From Fistulifera solaris (Eukaryota), in assembly GCA_030295235.1 (NCBI GenBank), contig AP026133.1, positions 806,001 through 870,000 on the forward strand: a DNA stretch of 64,000 nucleotides, given 5' to 3'. A program made the translations under genes and the position numbers. Positions 10,921-20,454 of the stretch are shown here, one piece after another; position 1 is the first letter of the stretch; each line of letters opens with the position of its first letter. Under the pieces are notes generated by a model that saw only the letters and a program-made list of their open reading frames with translations, was not told the DNA's origin and ran no database searches.

Positions 10921-11340
10921 GGTTTGGGAGTAATAGTGTCCCAGACGCCTGCTGAAGGTGCTGAAGCAGATATTGATATCAGTTCCACTGTTGTGTCCCG
11001 TTACTACGTTTCTTCATAATTCATTCACTCCAAAGCATCGGAAATATTCCCGTATATTCATTTTTCACCCCTTTTTATTACTCTGGGGGTAGTTTCGACT
11101 CTGTCTAGTATCTTACCGGTATCGAATCAAGCAGAAGACTTAAGCAAGGAAATCGCGGGCTGCACTACAGTGTACCGAACAGCACCACAATTCCAAGATG
11201 TTCCAGGAACTCGTCTTGGATGTTCCTGGTTCCTGGCTCGGAAGCGAAAATATCCATCGGTACCACCTTTTACACCACAACAATCGTTCCTCCATCCTCA
11301 AAAATAGATAAGCCAGTCAAGCGAAACAGGAACAAAACAG

Positions 11341-12784
11341 ATGACATTAACTGTCGTGGTAGGCTCTTCCGGATCCGGAAAGACAACCTTCTTGAACGAC
11401 GTGCACAAGTCGCACAAGTGCATCTACATTCGTCAATATCACAACATCCGTCCCTACGTAACGGTTAGCAAGATCCCAAACTTTGATCCGACGCGTCTAC
11501 CGTTTTGGGATATCTATGAACGCGAAGAAACTGCTGCGACGATCAAGGCTGGTGGAACAATGGCGGGAGAATTTACGGCCGGTCTTTCTGGAGGTCAACG
11601 AAAACTCCTGCTCTTTGAATTGGTGGTCCAGCGCGTTGCTTCTCAGAGCAATCTTTTGATTGCACTAGACGAACCATTTGCAGGTGTCACTGACGATTAT
11701 GTGCCTTTCATTGTTAAGCGCTTGAATGAGTTGCGACAGAATCACGAAATTCTCTTGGTCACAAACGATCACGTCGACACACTCAAAGAAATGGCCGACA
11801 ACACCATCACCGTCAGTGCGATCGATCGCACTAAAGTCCAAGTAAACAAAATCGAGGGCGTTAGTCGAGAAAAAACCATTCTTGCCCTAGCGATTGGAGA
11901 CGCTTATGAGTACAAGGGCTCTTGGGACGATCTCCGATTCTTCCTGGACGTTGAAGTTCTTAACAACGGTGCATTACTCGGTGTGGCGATGTTCACACTT
12001 TTGTCTTCGGTCTCTTCCTTGCTACCTTCTGGGACTCCAGGGAGGAAAATGCTGCGCTTGTTCTGGTGGCAGGTGGTATTGTTGCATACTTTTGTTTGAA
12101 TCCTTACTTGTTATCGCTTGCTGACTGGCGCAACTTTATGGGCGAAGAAGCTGAAGCTCTTTTGCACGCCTCAAAAGACATGAACAATTTCCTAAAGTCT
12201 TCGTTGACCATGTTTTTGATCTTAATTGTCTCAGTTGTGCAGTTTGGAATCACGAATGCAGTGATCAATGGCCTTGAGAGTTCTTCCTTCTGGGTGGCCA
12301 TGCTGATGGATAGTGCTAGCATGACATTTCCATTCATTTGCTTCGGTCTTTATACGAAGCTTCCATTCCAGGCTGTTGAGATCATTGCTAGCATGCCCTT
12401 CTTGTTCATGATCTTCTTTTCTACAACGTTCTCACCTGGGTCTGGTGTTGCCGTGTTGAAGGAGTTGCGATACTTATTTGCACGATTCTACTTTTGGTGC
12501 ATGATCCCAGGAATTCGTGATGACATGGAAAACTGTCCCAGCACCGACGAGAAGAATCTGCTGTACATGATTTTATCGGCTTTGATCGGTGTTGTGCTCT
12601 TTTGACTGTCATGGGAGTAAGCTCATTGCTGCGTTCCAAGAAAGTCAAGAAAATGAGCTCGAAGAAAAATGCTTTGAAGGATGACGAGTTCCGTGATTTG
12701 CAGATTGAACTCTATGGTGAGAAAGCCATGGATATTCAGAGCACGAACCATTCCACAAGCTCGAAAAAGACCGAGGGTGTCTAG
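11341..12784 (+). CDS. Atypical ABC half-transporter (NBD-TMD, ABCG-like topology)
   Basis: Walker A GSSGSGKT, signature LSGGQ, Walker B IALDEP, then several hydrophobic TM segments. Frameshifts at T-runs near 12000 and 12600. Confidence 0.85.
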
Positions 12785-13340: not shown

Positions 13341-14248
13341 ATGAAGCGCTTGACATGCTTACTTTTGTCGTTAATTGGGACTATTGAAGGGTTTATAATT
13401 TTACCTGACCGATCTTCTTCGTCGAGCCTTTTCGGTATATCGCGACAATTTCGTTCTAGCAATCCTCGCCGGACAAATATCGCCATGGCAGAAGCAGACT
13501 TCGATGCACCTGAACCTCGCAACAACGACCGTCTCGACAACATTAATGAGATCGAAATGGCACGTGGACTGCCCGATCAAAAACCGAAAAATGGAGGAGG
13601 AGGACTCGGTGGCTACGATCCTTACGAAGATCTGCGCGGCAGCGAAATTGACGTCGGAGATCCGCAAATTAAGTTGAAAGAGAAAGAACGTAGCGTGACA
13701 TCGATTTTGGCCGAACTAGCCGCGATTCAGCAGCAAGGACCTCAGAAATACTGTATTTTGGGGACTCGTCATTGCAGCTATCTGCACCAACAAATTATCG
13801 AATTGCTGTAAGTGACTGCGGAGTGATCGACGTGCATTCACTGTGTTGCTATTGTTTTGATGCCTCACATCTTCTCGCTAGGGCGTATGCTTTGGTCTTA
13901 TCTGGAAACCACGTTTATACATCAGGTGCGGGAGGAACAAATGCTGCTACGATCAAGGGTGCGTTACGCGCGGAGCGACCGGATTTGTTGACGGTAGTTA
14001 TTCCGCAATCTATGAGTCGGCAGACGAAAGAATCACAGGAATTGCTGAAAGAAGTAGAAGATGTGATCGCCATGCCGCAAAACGATGATTTGTCACTAGA
14101 TGTGGCCAGTAAAATTTGCAACTCGTATTTGTTGAGTTTGACAGACCAGTTAATCAGCTTTGCGTTTCATGAAAGTAACACGGTCATTGAAGCGACGAAA
14201 GAGGCCAAGAAGCTCAACAAGTTAGTCACGGTACTGTTCCTTGACTGA
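13341..14248 (+). CDS. Plastid-targeted DprA/Smf-like (SLOG superfamily) protein of cyanobacterial type
   Basis: Signal peptide ending IEG|F plus a Ser-rich transit peptide. ELAAIQQ.G...ILGTRH, YALVLSGNH.YTSGA.GTN.A.I.GA and FAFHES. Intron 13808-13881 joins the two ORFs in frame. Confidence 0.85.
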
Positions 14249-14984: not shown

Positions 14985-15874
14985 ATGTTTTCCAGTCGTC
15001 CCATAACAATGCTGCACACCAGCCACATCGTCAACGATGAAAACGTGACAGAGCTCAACAAGACAACTTCTGCTATTACTAAAGATTCATCGTTGACAGT
15101 GCATAAGACTCCTGCAGGAACGAAATCGCGACGCGCTTTTGGTGATATCTCCAATAAACGTCCCCAGAAACATCTTGAAAGAGAAGGTGATGACATCGCC
15201 TGGAAATCAGCAGCAGCTCCACGAACCCCTGCAGCAGCAATGACGAAGAAATCCAGCAAGAAATCCTCGAAAAAGACATCGGTGCGTTTATTTCCCAATC
15301 CAGACACGAAGCGAGGTGTGACTTTTGCAGAGGAGAAAGTTGAGAGTTCCAAGATTCCTTCTACCCTACACACTGCCGTTTCCGAGAAGAATGAAACACT
15401 AGAGACGAGTGCTTGTGAAGACGACGATAATTATGATGAGCCGGAGAAGCCTTTGGGGCGCACTTACCAGCAGCAGTGGGAGAATGGCGACCATGATGAC
15501 GACGAAACCGTGTTGTCATTGGAAGGCGTCTACGACATCGCGAAGAGATGGAAAGAATTCGACGAGAAAATCAACTCGCTACAGCCATCGTACGAAGAAC
15601 AGTTTCAGCAGCATATAGCTGATTTCGATCGAGAACTAGAAGAGTTCACAAAACAAGAAGGTGGGTTGGATTTCTGTTATCTAAACTTGCAATTAACCGG
15701 ATATCATTATATCTCACTTCATCGTCTATCACGACAGCATCTTGCGTCGATACATTCCCATCACCAGATGAGTCCGCCCTCTTGTCGTTTCTTAATGAAT
15801 TGGAGGATGACTTAGATATCTTCGCAGCTGACGATTCCTCAGCCCCAACGAATCTAGAGATTTCATTTGGCTAA
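14985..15874 (+). CDS. Disordered protein with an APC/C D-box (securin-like candidate)
   Basis: DEN at 15036, RRAFGDISN at 15129-15155, basic middle and acidic C-half. Intron 15661-15737 gives the acidic tail ...LEDDLDIF..LEISFG*. Confidence 0.7.
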
Positions 15875-17530
15875 ACATGAGCGAGGAGGGCGGAGTTGGC
15901 TAATGTGCACATTATTCGCTTCCCGGTTCCTTTTGTTGTTACTAGAAACCTTTTTAGATCTTCTCTAGCCTCTTGAAGACTTTGAGTTGTAAAGTTGGTC
16001 TTCTTTCAACATAGCATAGTTTTCGTAATGAGTTAGATCGGAAACGACTACAAACTTCCGTCGTAACTCCACGGCAGAAGCGGTAAAATATAAAATCAGT
16101 TTCAATTTCATAAACGAGATACTATTACACTCGCCCCGAAACAGGTGCAATAAAGTTGCGTGGGTTTGGGCGGTACTTTGCACATAATGTAGCACGTGCA
16201 ATGATGACGATGAAGAGCAATTTAGCCGATGCTTATTCAACCTGATGGATGAGGACTCGTTGGGAGAAATATGTCATTGCCAGAGAATGCACCTGGGGCA
16301 GATTCGTCTTCCATATCGCTACCTAATCGCTCGGCATCGAAACAGTCTTCGATTCTCTGCTTATAAATCGCAAGAAAAAGTAGCCTACTGCTTAGTTTGA
16401 GGACAGGGCAACCAGCTTAGGGAGTTTGTCTCTGCGAGCTATCGCAATCGTAGGACTAGCCTCTGACTTTCTCATAGCTCGCAAGTCGCCAGTCATTTTC
16501 GACACAGCAAATCACGGGAGGAAATGTCTGCATGGTACTCTGAATGTTCAACAATTCGCTCATCTGTAGAAATTTGTTTATGTTGCTGACTAACCTGTAA
16601 GACAAAGCATTGTTTTCTAGAACCAGGGGTCTAGACATTCAGCTTTTGTGATGTATTTAGAACAATTGTAGCATTCGTAGTAACGACGAGATTGAAAGAA
16701 ACAAAGATGGGCAATAACTTCCCAGATATTGATGATCGATAAAAAATGGGTCATCTCGAGAACCTGCGTTACCAAACGCGTAGGTCAAGCCCTCTTGTGG
16801 GCTATCAAGTCGTTAATCAAAAGTAGGAATTGATCGAAGCTTGGTGAGTTTCTGAGCGTTGAGGAGGCAGGTGACGAGGTGCTCGTCAACACGCAGCATG
16901 ACAACCAACACTACCGACATGCAGTTATATGACCCAACCCCGAAGATATAAAACCAGCAAGCAGAAAATCGCCGATCAACATCGTCACGGTGATCATCGA
17001 CCACCGAACCGATCCTTAATCAATATACCTGGTAATTTAGTCTACTCCGTATTTTTCGGAAGACCCTGTCTGGGAGATTTCTCTGCAGAAGTGTCATCCG
17101 TCCTAAGGAAGGCGTTCTTCCAAATTTTTGCGTGTTGGATAACCTTAATCAATCGAGCAAAACCGGTGACCCGTGAAGGTTTTCGGCCTACACAGTTGAT
17201 AATAGTCCAAAAATGGTTTTCGATCTTTATATTACTACGTATACAATTCACCATGTGTCCAGGTGTAATCCGTGACATTTTTCAAGGGGGATTGTAAAGG
17301 CAAAAATTTGGACGAAAGGTTTCAGTAATTTTTGCTTCGTCGCGCAGCTTTGCATCAGCCTTGTACTTGTACTCCATCTTTTATTTCTGGAGAAGGCAAT
17401 GGTCTGGCTCCACGCCTTCAATTCAAAAAAAGCTTGAAGGAGCCCTGAGCCTCGAGCCTCTATCGCAGCAATCATTGTTTCGCAACTGATCGAGGCTGCT
17501 ATTTACATTGACTTCATAAATCAGTCGCAT

Positions 17531-18649
17531 ATGCATGATCCTAATATGACGAGTTCATTTAAAAATAACATACTCTACGGACAAGTCGTGGTGGGTCCTC
17601 CCGGCGCGGGAAAAACCACTTATTGCAATGGTATGCAACAATATCTACGTCTGCTGCAACGCAATGCGTGGGTGATGAATATGGATCCGGCGAATGATCC
17701 GGGCGATCTGTACGAAACAATATTCGATGTGCGAAACGACATGGTAGATTTGTCGGTTGTGATGGACGAAACGGAACTAGGACCGAATGGTGGGCTGATG
17801 TATTGCATGGAATATATGGAGCAACATGTCATGGACATTGTCAAATGTGTGCGGAATCGACAGCAGCAACAACAGGAGAGCGACTCATCATCTTCGAAAA
17901 CGAAGAACGATCCTCTGTATTTGCTATTGGATTTTCCAGGACAAGTTGAATTGTATACACACTCGATGTTTGTCCAGAATTTGTTATCGCAATTGCAAAA
18001 ACAGTTGAATTTGCGATTGACGTTGGTGCAATTAATCGATTCGCAATATTGTTATCAGGCGTCGTCCTTCCTATCAGCGGCATTACTCGGGACAACGACA
18101 TTGTTGCGGATGGAGTTGCCTACAGTGAGTGTATGGACAAAAATGGATTTGTTGCGGGGGAATGATTTGCCCATGCCTTGGGAGTTTTTCACGGAATGTT
18201 TCGATTTGGAACGATTAATTCCGTTTCTCGATCAAACGAACATGAACAGTCACGCAAATAAGGATAACGATGAAGAAGATTATAAGAATATCGAAGACGA
18301 CGAAAGATATAACGCCGTCTGGGAAGATCCCGATTATCAAGCAGCACGTCAACGTCGTAAGCAATCCAAACTGAATCGCAAATACACGAAATTGCACGAA
18401 GTCATGGCAGAAGTGGTCGAGGATTTCGGATTATTGAATTTCATACCGTTGGACATACAGGATGCTACACTTGTAGGGCAGGTCCTGGCCAAAGTAGATC
18501 AGTGCAATGGTTACGTATATACACAACAATCGATTCCGGAAGATATGTTCCAGTGCGCGGCGGCGTCATCCGACTACACAGGGGAATCACAATTGCAAAT
18601 ACGGGAACGGATCCATTCGTCGCCGCCATCTTTGAAACAGCAACCTTGA
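17531..18649 (+). CDS. GPN2: GPN-loop GTPase 2
   Basis: Intact ORF with GPPGAGKTT, NMDPAN, LGPNGGL, DFPGQVELYTH and TKMDLL. Confidence 0.93.
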   Translation: MHDPNMTSSFKNNILYGQVVVGPPGAGKTTYCNGMQQYLRLLQRNAWVMNMDPANDPGDLYETIFDVRNDMVDLSVVMDETELGPNGGLMYCMEYMEQHVMDIVKCVRNRQQQQQESDSSSSKTKNDPLYLLLDFPGQVELYTHSMFVQNLLSQLQKQLNLRLTLVQLIDSQYCYQASSFLSAALLGTTTLLRMELPTVSVWTKMDLLRGNDLPMPWEFFTECFDLERLIPFLDQTNMNSHANKDNDEEDYKNIEDDERYNAVWEDPDYQAARQRRKQSKLNRKYTKLHEVMAEVVEDFGLLNFIPLDIQDATLVGQVLAKVDQCNGYVYTQQSIPEDMFQCAAASSDYTGESQLQIRERIHSSPPSLKQQP

Positions 18650-18732: not shown

Positions 18733-20454
18733 TTAATCTTTCTTGGGAGAGGTCTCCTTTTGAGTCATGGTAGCTGGGGCCGGTGCTGCTGCTAATGGTG
18801 CTTTGGGTGCAGCACTTTTTGACACAGAGGAGGTCTCCTTTGTAGTACTTGGTTTTGCTTTCTTTTTGGGTTTAGTGCTTATGGAGAAAGCAGCCTCATC
18901 TGATGATGGAGCCGTGTTAGGAAAAGCAGGCGGTGCATCTTCTGACTTTCGTTTCCGTTTCACTGCAGGTTTCTTTGTCTTGGTGTCGGCACTTGATGTT
19001 GTCGTTGCTGTTGGTGCGCCGGCAGACGCTGCTGTCGTACTGGAGGAGGATGCTGTCGCAGCTGGCTTTTTCCCCGCCAGCTTGGATCCGGTAGCAGTTT
19101 TGCTGGCAGACGCTTTAGCCTTGCCCGGTGCTGCGGCGGCTGCAGTGGCAGCTGGACCTTTCGTCACTGGCTTGGGTCGTGGCGCCGGAGGCGGGCAATG
19201 CCCAGAAGAGTCTCTTCGTCCACCACGCGAATATTACCACCCATTTTTGCCAGTTTGAGACGTCGAGCACGCAGCACACCTTCTTTCTGAATCACTTGTT
19301 TCTGCAACAACAGCCACGTCAATGCGTCTCGACGGACAGTATCCATCAAATCACACGCCCGTTTTGTAGCAATCACAGTAGATGGCACATTCATTCCCGC
19401 CAAGAGAGCCTCCATACGAGCCACCAATGCTTTGGAAATACCCGTTTCACCACCAGTAGCGGGAAGTACCAATCGAGCTGATTGCAAATAAGGGACACCG
19501 GGCACTGGTGTCGGAGCCGTGGTCGTCATAGCTTGATCAACCTGTTGCATGGCCACTTCGGGAGCCGGAATAGGCGTTGCTGCCCGTGAAGCTGTCGTCC
19601 CACTCGCCGCCACGACATGCGCTCCGCGCTTCTTCAATTTGCGCAATTGTGTCTCCACCTGCTTGAGTTCGTTCCGTAACGCCAATTCTTCCGCTTCTTC
19701 TTCCTTTGTTCGATTCCACAATGCCTCCCAATGAGCGCGTCGCTCCTTTTCGTACGCTAGATCAAAGACTTTATTACTCGTTCCAGTCCCTAAATGCTGC
19801 ATGAGCGGCTGGTGTTGCGGATCGGAAGACGCCAAAGAACGAGCCGCCGCTGTTTCCAGCAACAATTTCGGATCCTCAGCATTATTGGTGGCGGCAGCTT
19901 CCAAGGCTTTTGTTTCAACAGCCGCTTCATGGGAAACACGCCGCTGCAACAGTTTTGCCGCAACGGTGTAAAATCGATGTTTCAAGTCTTCGACGGGCCG
20001 CGGGGGACACGCGGCACACCAACGATCATGAATAACGGGCCATCGCAATTCAAAAATGCGTGCGTAATCCATCAAGGTGTCAGTTTCACTTTGCGACCAG
20101 TTTTCTGATGTCAACCACGCTTTGTATTCCTCTATTGTGTATTGTACTGGATCTAAATGAATATCAAAACGAGCGTATGGATAATCGGGGTATTCGACAT
20201 TCGCACGGACCCAGTGGTTTAAAAAGAAGCCCGTCAGGGCGGCTCGACGATGAAAACGGAGCCCAGGTCCATTTTCGCGCTGGTTTGTGTGAATTGATTT
20301 GTTTATTTCCTATTTTGATGAATGTTGGGACTGTTGTTGGGAGTTCCGTGGCAGATCCGGTGAGTTCCGAGTAAGGCTTTGGTAGAAGACTTTTGTTGCT
20401 GCCGACTGGTTTAGGGGCGCTTTTCACGCCCAGTATTTCAGCAACGTCGGTCAT
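18733..20454 (-). CDS. DMAP1: DMAP1/Swc4 (NuA4/SWR1 subunit, SANT domain) with a low-complexity Ala/Lys/Pro tail
   Basis: MTDVAEILG, WTWAPF.SS.R.DGL, reconstructed HWVRANVEYPDYPYARF, SANT W...ETD.L......LRWPVIHDR..VEDLK.RFY, and FD..YEKERR. Frameshifts near 20222, 20188 and 19194. Confidence 0.9.

What the first reader, a model, noticed from the sequence alone, without database searches (positions are those of the whole stretch)
14985..15874. Candidate diatom securin or APC/C-regulated mitotic inhibitor
Seen: an apparently disordered protein of about 270 aa with this order of elements: KEN-like DEN (15036), D-box RRAFGDISN (15129-15155), Lys-rich linker, YDEPEKP (15432-15452) and an acidic/hydrophobic tail. 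Established: securins (PTTG1, Pds1, Cut2, plant PATRONUS) share almost no sequence but do share this layout, including a non-cleavable (D/E)xExx-non-Arg separase pseudosubstrate. I know of no characterised diatom securin. The assignment is inference from motif order only.
Basis: inference. Interest (0 to 1): 0.72.

Follow-up and report, generated by a model that had tools for sequence, protein, structure and literature searches.

The report
Probable diatom securin, separase's inhibitor
This small diatom gene most likely encodes securin, the brake that stops chromosomes separating too early, because it carries destruction signals and an uncuttable look-alike of the site that the chromosome-splitting protease cuts, and a structure prediction places that look-alike in the diatom protease's active site; nothing has been tested in cells.

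Summary
The stretch is a two-exon, 270-aa gene (Fistulifera solaris FisN_2Lh394, annotated hypothetical) with relatives in Phaeodactylum and Chaetoceros. In 42 family members the D-box is invariant (42/42), an xEN motif precedes it (40/42), and a central patch reads [DE]-[IVP]-E-x-P-[ALYS]-G-R, never with Arg at P1. This patch mirrors the ExxR sites of related Rad21 kleisins (D/E-V/I-E-L-x-R). Co-folding the patch with the organism's own separase protease region scored 0.78 against a best control of 0.01 and placed it on the catalytic His/Cys. Solved securin-separase complexes exist, so the model may partly recall them. Language-model features also point to securin clusters (0.86-0.90). Against: no Pfam or PDB securin match, 6/42 members lack the P4 Glu, this lineage's patch (EPEKPL) is degenerate, and expression and degradation were not tested. 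Securin is already proposed to be pan-eukaryotic (van Hooff et al.; their supplement, unseen, may list a diatom orthologue). Verdict: probable securin (about 0.8), a new member of a known kind.

The parts
14985..15660 (+). Exon 1 (residues 1-225 plus 1 nt)
   Evidence: matches annotated FisN_2Lh394
15661..15737 (+). Phase-1 intron, 77 nt, GT..AG
   Evidence: Acceptor kept in the homoeologue while the alternative AG is not; the annotated Phaeodactylum orthologue departs from its genomic read-through at the equivalent place; not shown by RNA
15738..15874 (+). Exon 2 (residues 226-270, acidic/hydrophobic tail, stop)
15036..15044 (+). DEN, a KEN-like degron candidate (as in the plant RSS1 DEN-box)
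   Evidence: xEN upstream of the D-box in 40 of 42; Asn invariant; strict KEN anywhere in only 2 of 42; RSS1 DEN-box in PMC3104554
15105..15113 (+). KTP, conserved CDK-type site just before the D-box
   Evidence: Thr-Pro invariant in 42 of 42; that it is phosphorylated is inference
15129..15155 (+). D-box RRAFGDISN
   Evidence: RRA[FL]GDISN in 42 of 42; weak match to the cyclin B1 N-terminus, E=1.2; 2 copies in the genome
15243..15278 (+). Lys/Ser-rich disordered linker (possible ubiquitin acceptors; inference)
   Evidence: pLDDT below 50; poorly conserved
15312..15326 (+). RGVTF, RVxF-like PP1-docking motif (family consensus RRV[END]F)
   Evidence: 35 of 42 in the linker vs shuffle mean 3.7, max 12; 23 of 30 after collapsing at 50% identity
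15438..15455 (+). EPEKPL, predicted separase pseudosubstrate P6-P1 (family consensus D-[IV]-E-x-P-A)
15456..15479 (+). GRTYQQQW, conserved prime-side segment with a short predicted helix
   Evidence: Gly 42 of 42, Arg 40 of 42; helix 162-167; in the predicted interface
15480..15524 (+). Acidic patch followed by S-L-E, a possible exosite-binding motif (inference)
   Evidence: Ser 90%, Leu 62%, Glu 76%; part of the acidic patch is in the predicted interface
15528..15659 (+). Long predicted acidic helix (runs a few residues into exon 2)
   Evidence: AlphaFold2 helix 183-230 of the homoeologue, pLDDT about 83-96; no fold match

Best explanation
This is the diatom securin. Its C-terminal half binds separase as an extended chain, and E-P-E-K-P-L (D-I/V-E-x-P-A in most relatives) occupies the substrate groove as an uncleavable copy of the Rad21 sites, because P1 is Leu/Ala/Tyr/Ser rather than Arg. 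At anaphase onset APC/C-CDC20 recognises the DEN and D-box in the disordered N-terminus and has the protein destroyed, freeing separase to cut Rad21 at DIEIRR and EVELPR. Shown here: gene structure, motif conservation, likeness to kleisin sites, presence of separase, Rad21 and APC10 in the genome. Predicted only: docking on the active site. Inferred from other securins: inhibition, APC/C-dependent destruction, timing, and the kleisin cleavage sites themselves.
For: (1) Layout equals the one Cromer et al. give as the only conserved features of securins: KEN and D boxes N-terminally plus a patch with a conserved Glu (PMC6690013). D-box 42 of 42, xEN 40 of 42, P4 Glu 36 of 42, P1 never Arg 42 of 42; after collapsing at 50% identity 30, 28, 24 and 30 of 30. 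(2) 59 of 65 Rad21-like loci carry [DES][IVMP]ExxR (95 sites vs shuffle mean 10, max 21). A P6-P2 matrix built from all 196 ExxR words ranks the family patch first in 22 of 42 proteins, against 2.2 expected among Glu-centred windows. [DES][IVMP]E occurs at the patch in 35 of 42 and in 22 of 700 other Glu-centred windows. (3) Co-fold of homoeologue residues 140-200 (interface residues identical to the window protein) with the 718-aa separase C-terminal region: score 0.78 in three runs, best of 3 controls 0.01, partner pLDDT 58, runs agree in at least 60% of contacts. The mark was reached by 51 of 78 solved and 2 of 108 mismatched microbial pairs; on eukaryotes by 71 of 105 solved (39 of 65 without a like complex) and 2 of 126 unrelated pairs. 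Contacts include His574, Cys606 and 651-659; the predicted P1 Leu touches Cys606 and 653-655, 658. His574 and Asp659 align to human His2003 and Asp2070. (4) ESM Atlas features: PF04856 securin cluster 0.86 for this protein (rank 20); a cluster named Securin 0.90 and the PF04856 cluster 0.88 for the Phaeodactylum orthologue. (5) Single locus per subgenome; separase, Rad21 and APC10 present.
Against: No Pfam securin hit for any of 27 aligned members or 6 proteins scanned whole. No securin chain among PDB sequence hits up to E=10. 6 of 42 members lack the P4 Glu (24 of 30 keep it after collapsing), 5 of them in one well-supported clade, although the separase Arg after the S1 Asp is kept in 84 of 88 separases. 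The window protein's own patch ranks only 7th of 257 windows on the kleisin matrix because of Pro at P5. LPE (2 of 42) and NxLx-phi-E (1 of 42) are absent. The co-fold may rest on memory of solved securin and substrate complexes (one search lists 7NJ1, 5U1T, 5MZ6); the test is uncalibrated for peptides and disordered chains; no control was another acidic Glu-bearing peptide; Arg660 is not among the confident contacts; and the tightest contacts of Cys606 are to residues 161-162, so the exact register is not proven. Atlas scores under 0.9 are leads only, and only 5 of the ten best named hits share a family. Homologues were found by similarity, so motif counts are partly circular, and 7 of the 42 are close Fistulifera-like sequences. 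No expression or degradation data.
Confidence: 0.8

Rival explanations
1. An APC/C-degraded PP1 regulatory subunit or inhibitor: the RVxF motif is the business end and the acidic patch only resembles a separase site.
For: RVxF-like motif in 35 of 42 linkers vs shuffle mean 3.7; 6 of 42 lack the P4 Glu; the rice securin homologue RSS1 and wheat TdRL1 bind PP1 (passages of PMC6690013, PMC12109034).
Against: RVxF is lost in 7 of 42, as often as the Glu; it does not explain the kleisin-like patch or the co-fold. It is compatible with the securin reading as a second function.
Confidence: 0.08
2. An Acm1-like or OSD1/UVI4-like pseudosubstrate inhibitor of APC/C, whose degrons block CDC20 or CDH1 instead of marking it for destruction.
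For: The most invariant block is the KTP plus D-box region; CDK-type S/TP sites cluster in the N-terminal half (mean 2.3 vs 0.07 after the patch).
Against: ABBA-type motif in 3 of 42 and IR/MR tail in 0 of 42 (motif definitions recalled); one D-box only; gives no role to the conserved central patch.
Confidence: 0.05
3. A separase substrate or docking partner (for example a spindle or centrosome protein with a long helix) that binds the groove but is not the stoichiometric inhibitor.
For: A 48-residue confident helix follows the patch; the co-fold cannot tell inhibitor from other groove binders; a nearly invariant Arg lies two residues after the proposed P1.
Against: No ExxR at the patch in any of 42, and only 1 of 42 has a [DES][IVMP]ExxR anywhere; the spacing Glu to Arg is five, not three.
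Confidence: 0.05
4. A sororin-like cohesin protector, or a detached cyclin B N-terminus.
For: Disordered, Lys-rich, degron-bearing; D-box resembles cyclin B1 (E=1.2).
Against: FGF 0 of 42, YSR/PIM 0 of 42; the C-terminus is acidic, not K/R-rich, and has no Pfam sororin or cyclin hit; the gene ends at 15874 and the next ORF is a GPN-type GTPase.
Confidence: 0.02

Closest known systems
Vertebrate securin (PTTG1, Pfam PF04856; separase complex 7NJ1)
   Same: Disordered N-terminus with KEN-type and D-box degrons; acidic P6 and Glu P4 with non-Arg P1 (human EIEKFFP, PMC6858450); DIE-type motif (PMC10317155); Atlas feature likeness 0.86-0.90.
   Different: No sequence-profile match; DEN/NEN instead of KEN; P1 usually small (Ala) or Leu rather than a large aromatic; no LPE or NxLx-phi-E; extra RVxF motif and long C-terminal helix.
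Plant PATRONUS / rice RSS1 (plant securin family)
   Same: DEN-box plus D-box, central conserved Glu patch, acidic C-terminus, about 200-270 aa; RSS1 binds PP1 and CDC20, and the diatom family carries an RVxF motif. A Streptophyta cluster scores 0.91 in the Atlas but is unnamed.
   Different: The central patch is D-I-E-x-P-A-G-R, not the WAGE or ExFLH motif; no alignment to plant sequences was made here.
Fungal securins (Pds1, Cut2, Chaetomium securin)
   Same: Pseudosubstrate logic and antiparallel binding model.
   Different: No detectable sequence similarity in PDB searches; direct comparison with these sequences was not run.
Pan-eukaryotic securin set of van Hooff et al. (bioRxiv 10.1101/2024.01.07.573240)
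   Same: They detect securins across eukaryotes by short linear motifs and place securin in LECA.
   Different: Main text names no diatom or stramenopile; the supplementary tables were closed, so a diatom orthologue may already be listed there.

Membership tests
Securin | N-terminal D-box | tested here: met
   RRA[FL]GDISN in 42 of 42
Securin | KEN or KEN-like box upstream of the D-box | tested here: met
   xEN in 40 of 42; strict KEN in 2 of 42; DEN form has precedent in RSS1
Securin | Conserved Glu patch resembling the kleisin site with a non-Arg P1 | tested here: met
   P4 Glu 36 of 42, P1 Ala 30, Leu 7, Tyr 4, Ser 1; present in the window protein but degenerate (rank 7 of 257); 6 relatives lack the Glu
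Securin | Largely disordered chain | tested here: inconclusive
   Residues 1-145 mostly pLDDT below 50, but helix 183-230 is confident
Securin | Binds separase over the active site | tested here: inconclusive
   Prediction only: 0.78 vs best control 0.01 with contacts on His574/Cys606; like complexes are solved and peptides are uncalibrated
Securin | Exosite motifs LPE and NxLx-phi-E (vertebrate, partly yeast) | tested here: not met
   2 of 42 and 1 of 42; not family-wide features (PMC6858450 finds LPE in vertebrates and some lower eukaryotes); a conserved S-L-E may stand in (inference)
Securin | Match to Pfam PF04856 | tested here: not met
   known securins are also conserved only between close species (PMC6690013), so this is not defining beyond its clade
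Securin | Inhibits separase; destroyed by APC/C-CDC20 at anaphase onset | not testable with these tools
   Needs biochemistry and synchronised cells
Sororin | FGF/YSR PDS5-binding motifs; K/R-rich stretch plus C-terminal Sororin domain | tested here: not met
   0 of 42 for FGF and YSR/PIM; acidic C-terminus; definition from PMC11148194
Acm1-like APC/C inhibitor | ABBA/A-motif beside KEN and D-box | tested here: not met
   ABBA-type regex (recalled) in 3 of 42
PP1-interacting protein | RVxF motif in a disordered region | tested here: met
   35 of 42 vs shuffle mean 3.7, max 12; definition in PMC12109034; binding itself not tested

The most novel reading that the evidence does not exclude
Diatom securin is a two-target regulator: it blocks separase through a kleisin-mimic patch and also recruits or inhibits PP1 through a conserved RVxF motif about 45 residues upstream, so that one APC/C-triggered destruction releases both the protease and the mitotic-exit phosphatase. 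With PP1 binding by rice RSS1, this would make a securin-PP1 link shared between plants and stramenopiles. One diatom clade would moreover inhibit separase without the supposedly pivotal P4 glutamate.
Probability: 0.3. Interest if true: 0.75.

Novelty: new member of a known kind. Interest (0 to 1): 0.55.

Why it matters
Securin has been shown by experiment in animals, fungi and plants. A named candidate in diatoms, with an orthologue in the transformable model Phaeodactylum tricornutum (XP_002183422.1 / B7G873), makes it directly testable whether the APC/C-securin-separase switch also runs anaphase in a stramenopile, as the proposed LECA origin predicts. It gives specific residues to mutate, candidate Rad21 cleavage sites, and a testable PP1-docking motif. 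The concept is not new, and the orthologue may already sit in an unseen supplementary table.

Tried and rejected
Pfam scans: no securin, sororin or cyclin hit. PDB sequence profiles: only chance-level hits. Foldseek on the AlphaFold model: nothing at E<=0.001. Atlas structure search of the Phaeodactylum model: all TM at or below 0.31. RNA evidence: no RNA holder listed; the three runs laid gave contigs without a spliced joint, and the main run reads through the intron, so it says nothing on splicing or expression. A 107-nt intron using the AG at 15766-15767 was rejected because the homoeologue lacks that AG. The 1-nt deletions in the homoeologue in this assembly are probably assembly errors: the annotated FisN_2Hh394 is an intact 271 aa and no such deletion is listed in the contigs. 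An MSA-like AACGG element upstream (14631) was rejected: chance-level count and absent from the homoeologue. Expression in Phaeodactylum: the accession was not found in the 6 readable supplements of PMC5156380 (two large tables unreadable), and I had no Phatr identifier. Paper searches: one search was swamped by 'securing'; one search did not force 'securin' and gave nothing useful; one search found 0 papers with the accessions or 'diatom securin'. Rows dropped before counting: P0025 (1366-aa repeat protein, false hit) and P0013 (fragment); P0033 and P0043 were replaced by cluster mates P0063 and P0056; kleisin locus L010 (homoeologue) was left out; 88 of the 120 listed separases were aligned. 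The submitted alignments were not used by the co-fold.

Full report
Verdict. All support is computational.

The gene. The ORF starts at 14985 and the named motifs lie where stated. Exon 1 ends at 15660; an intron 15661-15737 gives 270 aa. The homoeologous copy keeps that acceptor and lacks the alternative one. The annotated Fistulifera solaris hypothetical protein FisN_2Lh394 equals residues 9-270. The genome holds this locus and one homoeologue, annotated as FisN_2Hh394, 271 aa, 234 of 271 columns identical. The runs that hold the stretch are not on record as RNA and show no spliced joint, so splicing and expression are unproven.

The family. Three searches gave 43 distinct proteins, one a false hit. 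After dropping that and a fragment, adding the homoeologue and swapping two for named cluster mates, 42 were aligned. Only three taxa are named by the sources: F. solaris, Phaeodactylum tricornutum (XP_002183422.1) and Chaetoceros debilis; the rest are unnamed and only presumed to be diatoms. Mean column identity is 19%, and conservation is confined to blocks: xEN, KTP, RRA[FL]GDISN, R[RK]VxF, D-[IV]-E-x-P-A-G-R-x-[WY]-x-Q-Q, an acidic run and S-L-E. Counts: D-box 42 of 42, xEN before it 40, P4 Glu 36, non-Arg P1 42, RVxF 35; after collapsing at 50% identity 30, 28, 24, 30 and 23 of 30. These counts are partly circular because homologues were found by similarity. No Pfam family and no PDB securin matched. 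AlphaFold2 gives a disordered first 145 residues, a short helix at 162-167 and a confident helix at 183-230.

The pseudosubstrate test. Separase cuts after Arg in (S/D/E)xExxR, and securin replaces that Arg (PMC10317155, passages; PMC6858450, passages). The genome's Rad21 has DIEIRR and EVELPR. Unfiltered ExxR words are enriched for Asp/Glu at P6, Val/Ile at P5 and Leu at P3. A matrix from these words ranks the family patch first in 22 of 42 proteins; 2.2 would be expected among Glu-centred windows. P1 is Ala 30, Leu 7, Tyr 4, Ser 1. Against this: the window protein has Pro at P5 and ranks 7th of 257; that form marks the clade containing Fistulifera, and Pro at P5 also occurs in some kleisin ExxR words. 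Six members lack the Glu, five in one clade with 100/99 support that also holds two members keeping it. That these ExxR words are true cleavage sites is inference.

The co-fold. Separase is present in both subgenomes. P0066, a 718-aa C-terminal region, shares exact stretches of 269, 146 and 241 residues with the second copy. Folded with residues 140-200 of the homoeologue, whose interface residues are identical to the window protein, it scored 0.78 in three runs; best of three controls 0.01; partner pLDDT 58; runs agree in at least 60% of contacts. The mark was reached by 51 of 78 solved and 2 of 108 mismatched microbial pairs, and on eukaryotes by 71 of 105 solved and 2 of 126 unrelated pairs. 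Residues 151-165 and 168-174 lie on His574, Cys606 and 651-659; His574 and Asp659 align to human His2003 and Asp2070. The predicted P1 Leu touches Cys606, 653-655 and 658. Caveats: securin-separase structures are solved, so memory can contribute, although no sequence likeness to those securins is detectable; peptides and disordered chains are uncalibrated; no control was an acidic Glu peptide; Arg660 is not among the confident contacts and Cys606 sits closest to residues 161-162, so the register is likely but not fixed.

Independent lead. ESM Atlas features place the protein near unnamed oomycete (0.93), arthropod (0.92) and streptophyte (0.91) clusters and a PF04856 securin cluster (0.86, rank 20 of 30). 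The Phaeodactylum orthologue, searched among named clusters, gives a mollusc cluster called Securin (0.90) and the PF04856 cluster (0.88). These are leads, not alignments, and may reflect shared degrons.

Mechanism. Most likely the C-terminal half holds separase inactive until APC/C-CDC20 (APC10 present) reads DEN and the D-box and destroys the protein; separase then cuts Rad21. Gene, motifs and kleisin likeness are shown; docking is predicted; inhibition, destruction and timing are inferred from other securins.

Rivals. Sororin and Acm1-type readings fail their motif tests (sororin features from PMC11148194, passages; the ABBA and IR-tail patterns are recalled). A PP1-regulator reading has real support: RVxF in 35 of 42 linkers against a shuffle mean of 3.7. 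Rice RSS1, a plant securin homologue with a DEN-box, binds PP1 and CDC20 (PMC3104554, PMC12109034, PMC6690013; passages). I read this as a likely second function, not a replacement.

Prior knowledge. Eme et al. 2011 found securin only in animals and fungi (PMC3195147, passages). Cromer et al. 2019 added plants and green algae (passages and section 9). A Chlamydomonas study speaks of a hypothetical securin analogue (PMC9448001, passages). Van Hooff et al. report securin as widespread and present in LECA, detected by short motifs (abstract, outline and passages); their main text names no diatom, and the supplement could not be seen and may list one. Searches for diatom or stramenopile securin, and for these accessions, found no paper describing it (listings only for papers not named above). 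Most subscription papers are not in the library.

Score. New member of a known kind; interest 0.55. It makes a clear question testable in a model diatom and adds a possible PP1 link and a Glu-less clade, but the concept is established.

Noticed in passing
L007 (G000:C8:712.4-718.7 kb, minus strand) and L008 (G000:C7 about 823-830 kb): Separase lies on the same contig as this gene, about 100 kb away, in both subgenomes. Not adjacent, so probably chance. Both copies are broken into overlapping frames in this assembly while a database copy of the last exon (P0066) is intact, which points to assembly indels.
   Followed up: partly
P0066 residues about 395-435 (separase; L007 about 1800-1950): Diatom separases carry an insert in the protease region with the pattern of a SAP-type DNA-binding helix pair (consensus TVxxLKxxL...RKxxLxxLL in alignment A3; several hits carry PF12949). 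The SAP label is recalled, not tested.
   Followed up: no
L009 (G000:C2:673181 onward) and L010: Rad21/Scc1 kleisin with two candidate separase sites, DIEIRR and EVELPR; related loci mostly show two such sites at similar spacing (37 of 65 with two or more).
   Followed up: yes
P0014, P0015, P0019, P0021, P0031 and P0028: Family members that keep the D-box and the PAGR(T)W block but lack the P4 glutamate; five fall in one clade. Unexplained; their own separases could not be paired.
   Followed up: partly
window 13341-14248 (+): Upstream neighbour: an apparently two-exon gene with a signal- and transit-peptide-like N-terminus and no Pfam hit for either piece; the sequence suggests a Rossmann-type (DprA/SMF-like) domain, a recalled impression only.
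   Followed up: no
window 17438-18649 (+): GPN-loop GTPase-type protein (PF03029, E=5e-51).
   Followed up: no
window 19164-20309 (-): DMAP1/SWC4-like protein (PF16282, E=4e-25).
   Followed up: no
window 11308-12784 (+): ABC-transporter-like gene (ATPase followed by membrane segments) spread over three overlapping frames, probably again assembly indels.
   Followed up: no
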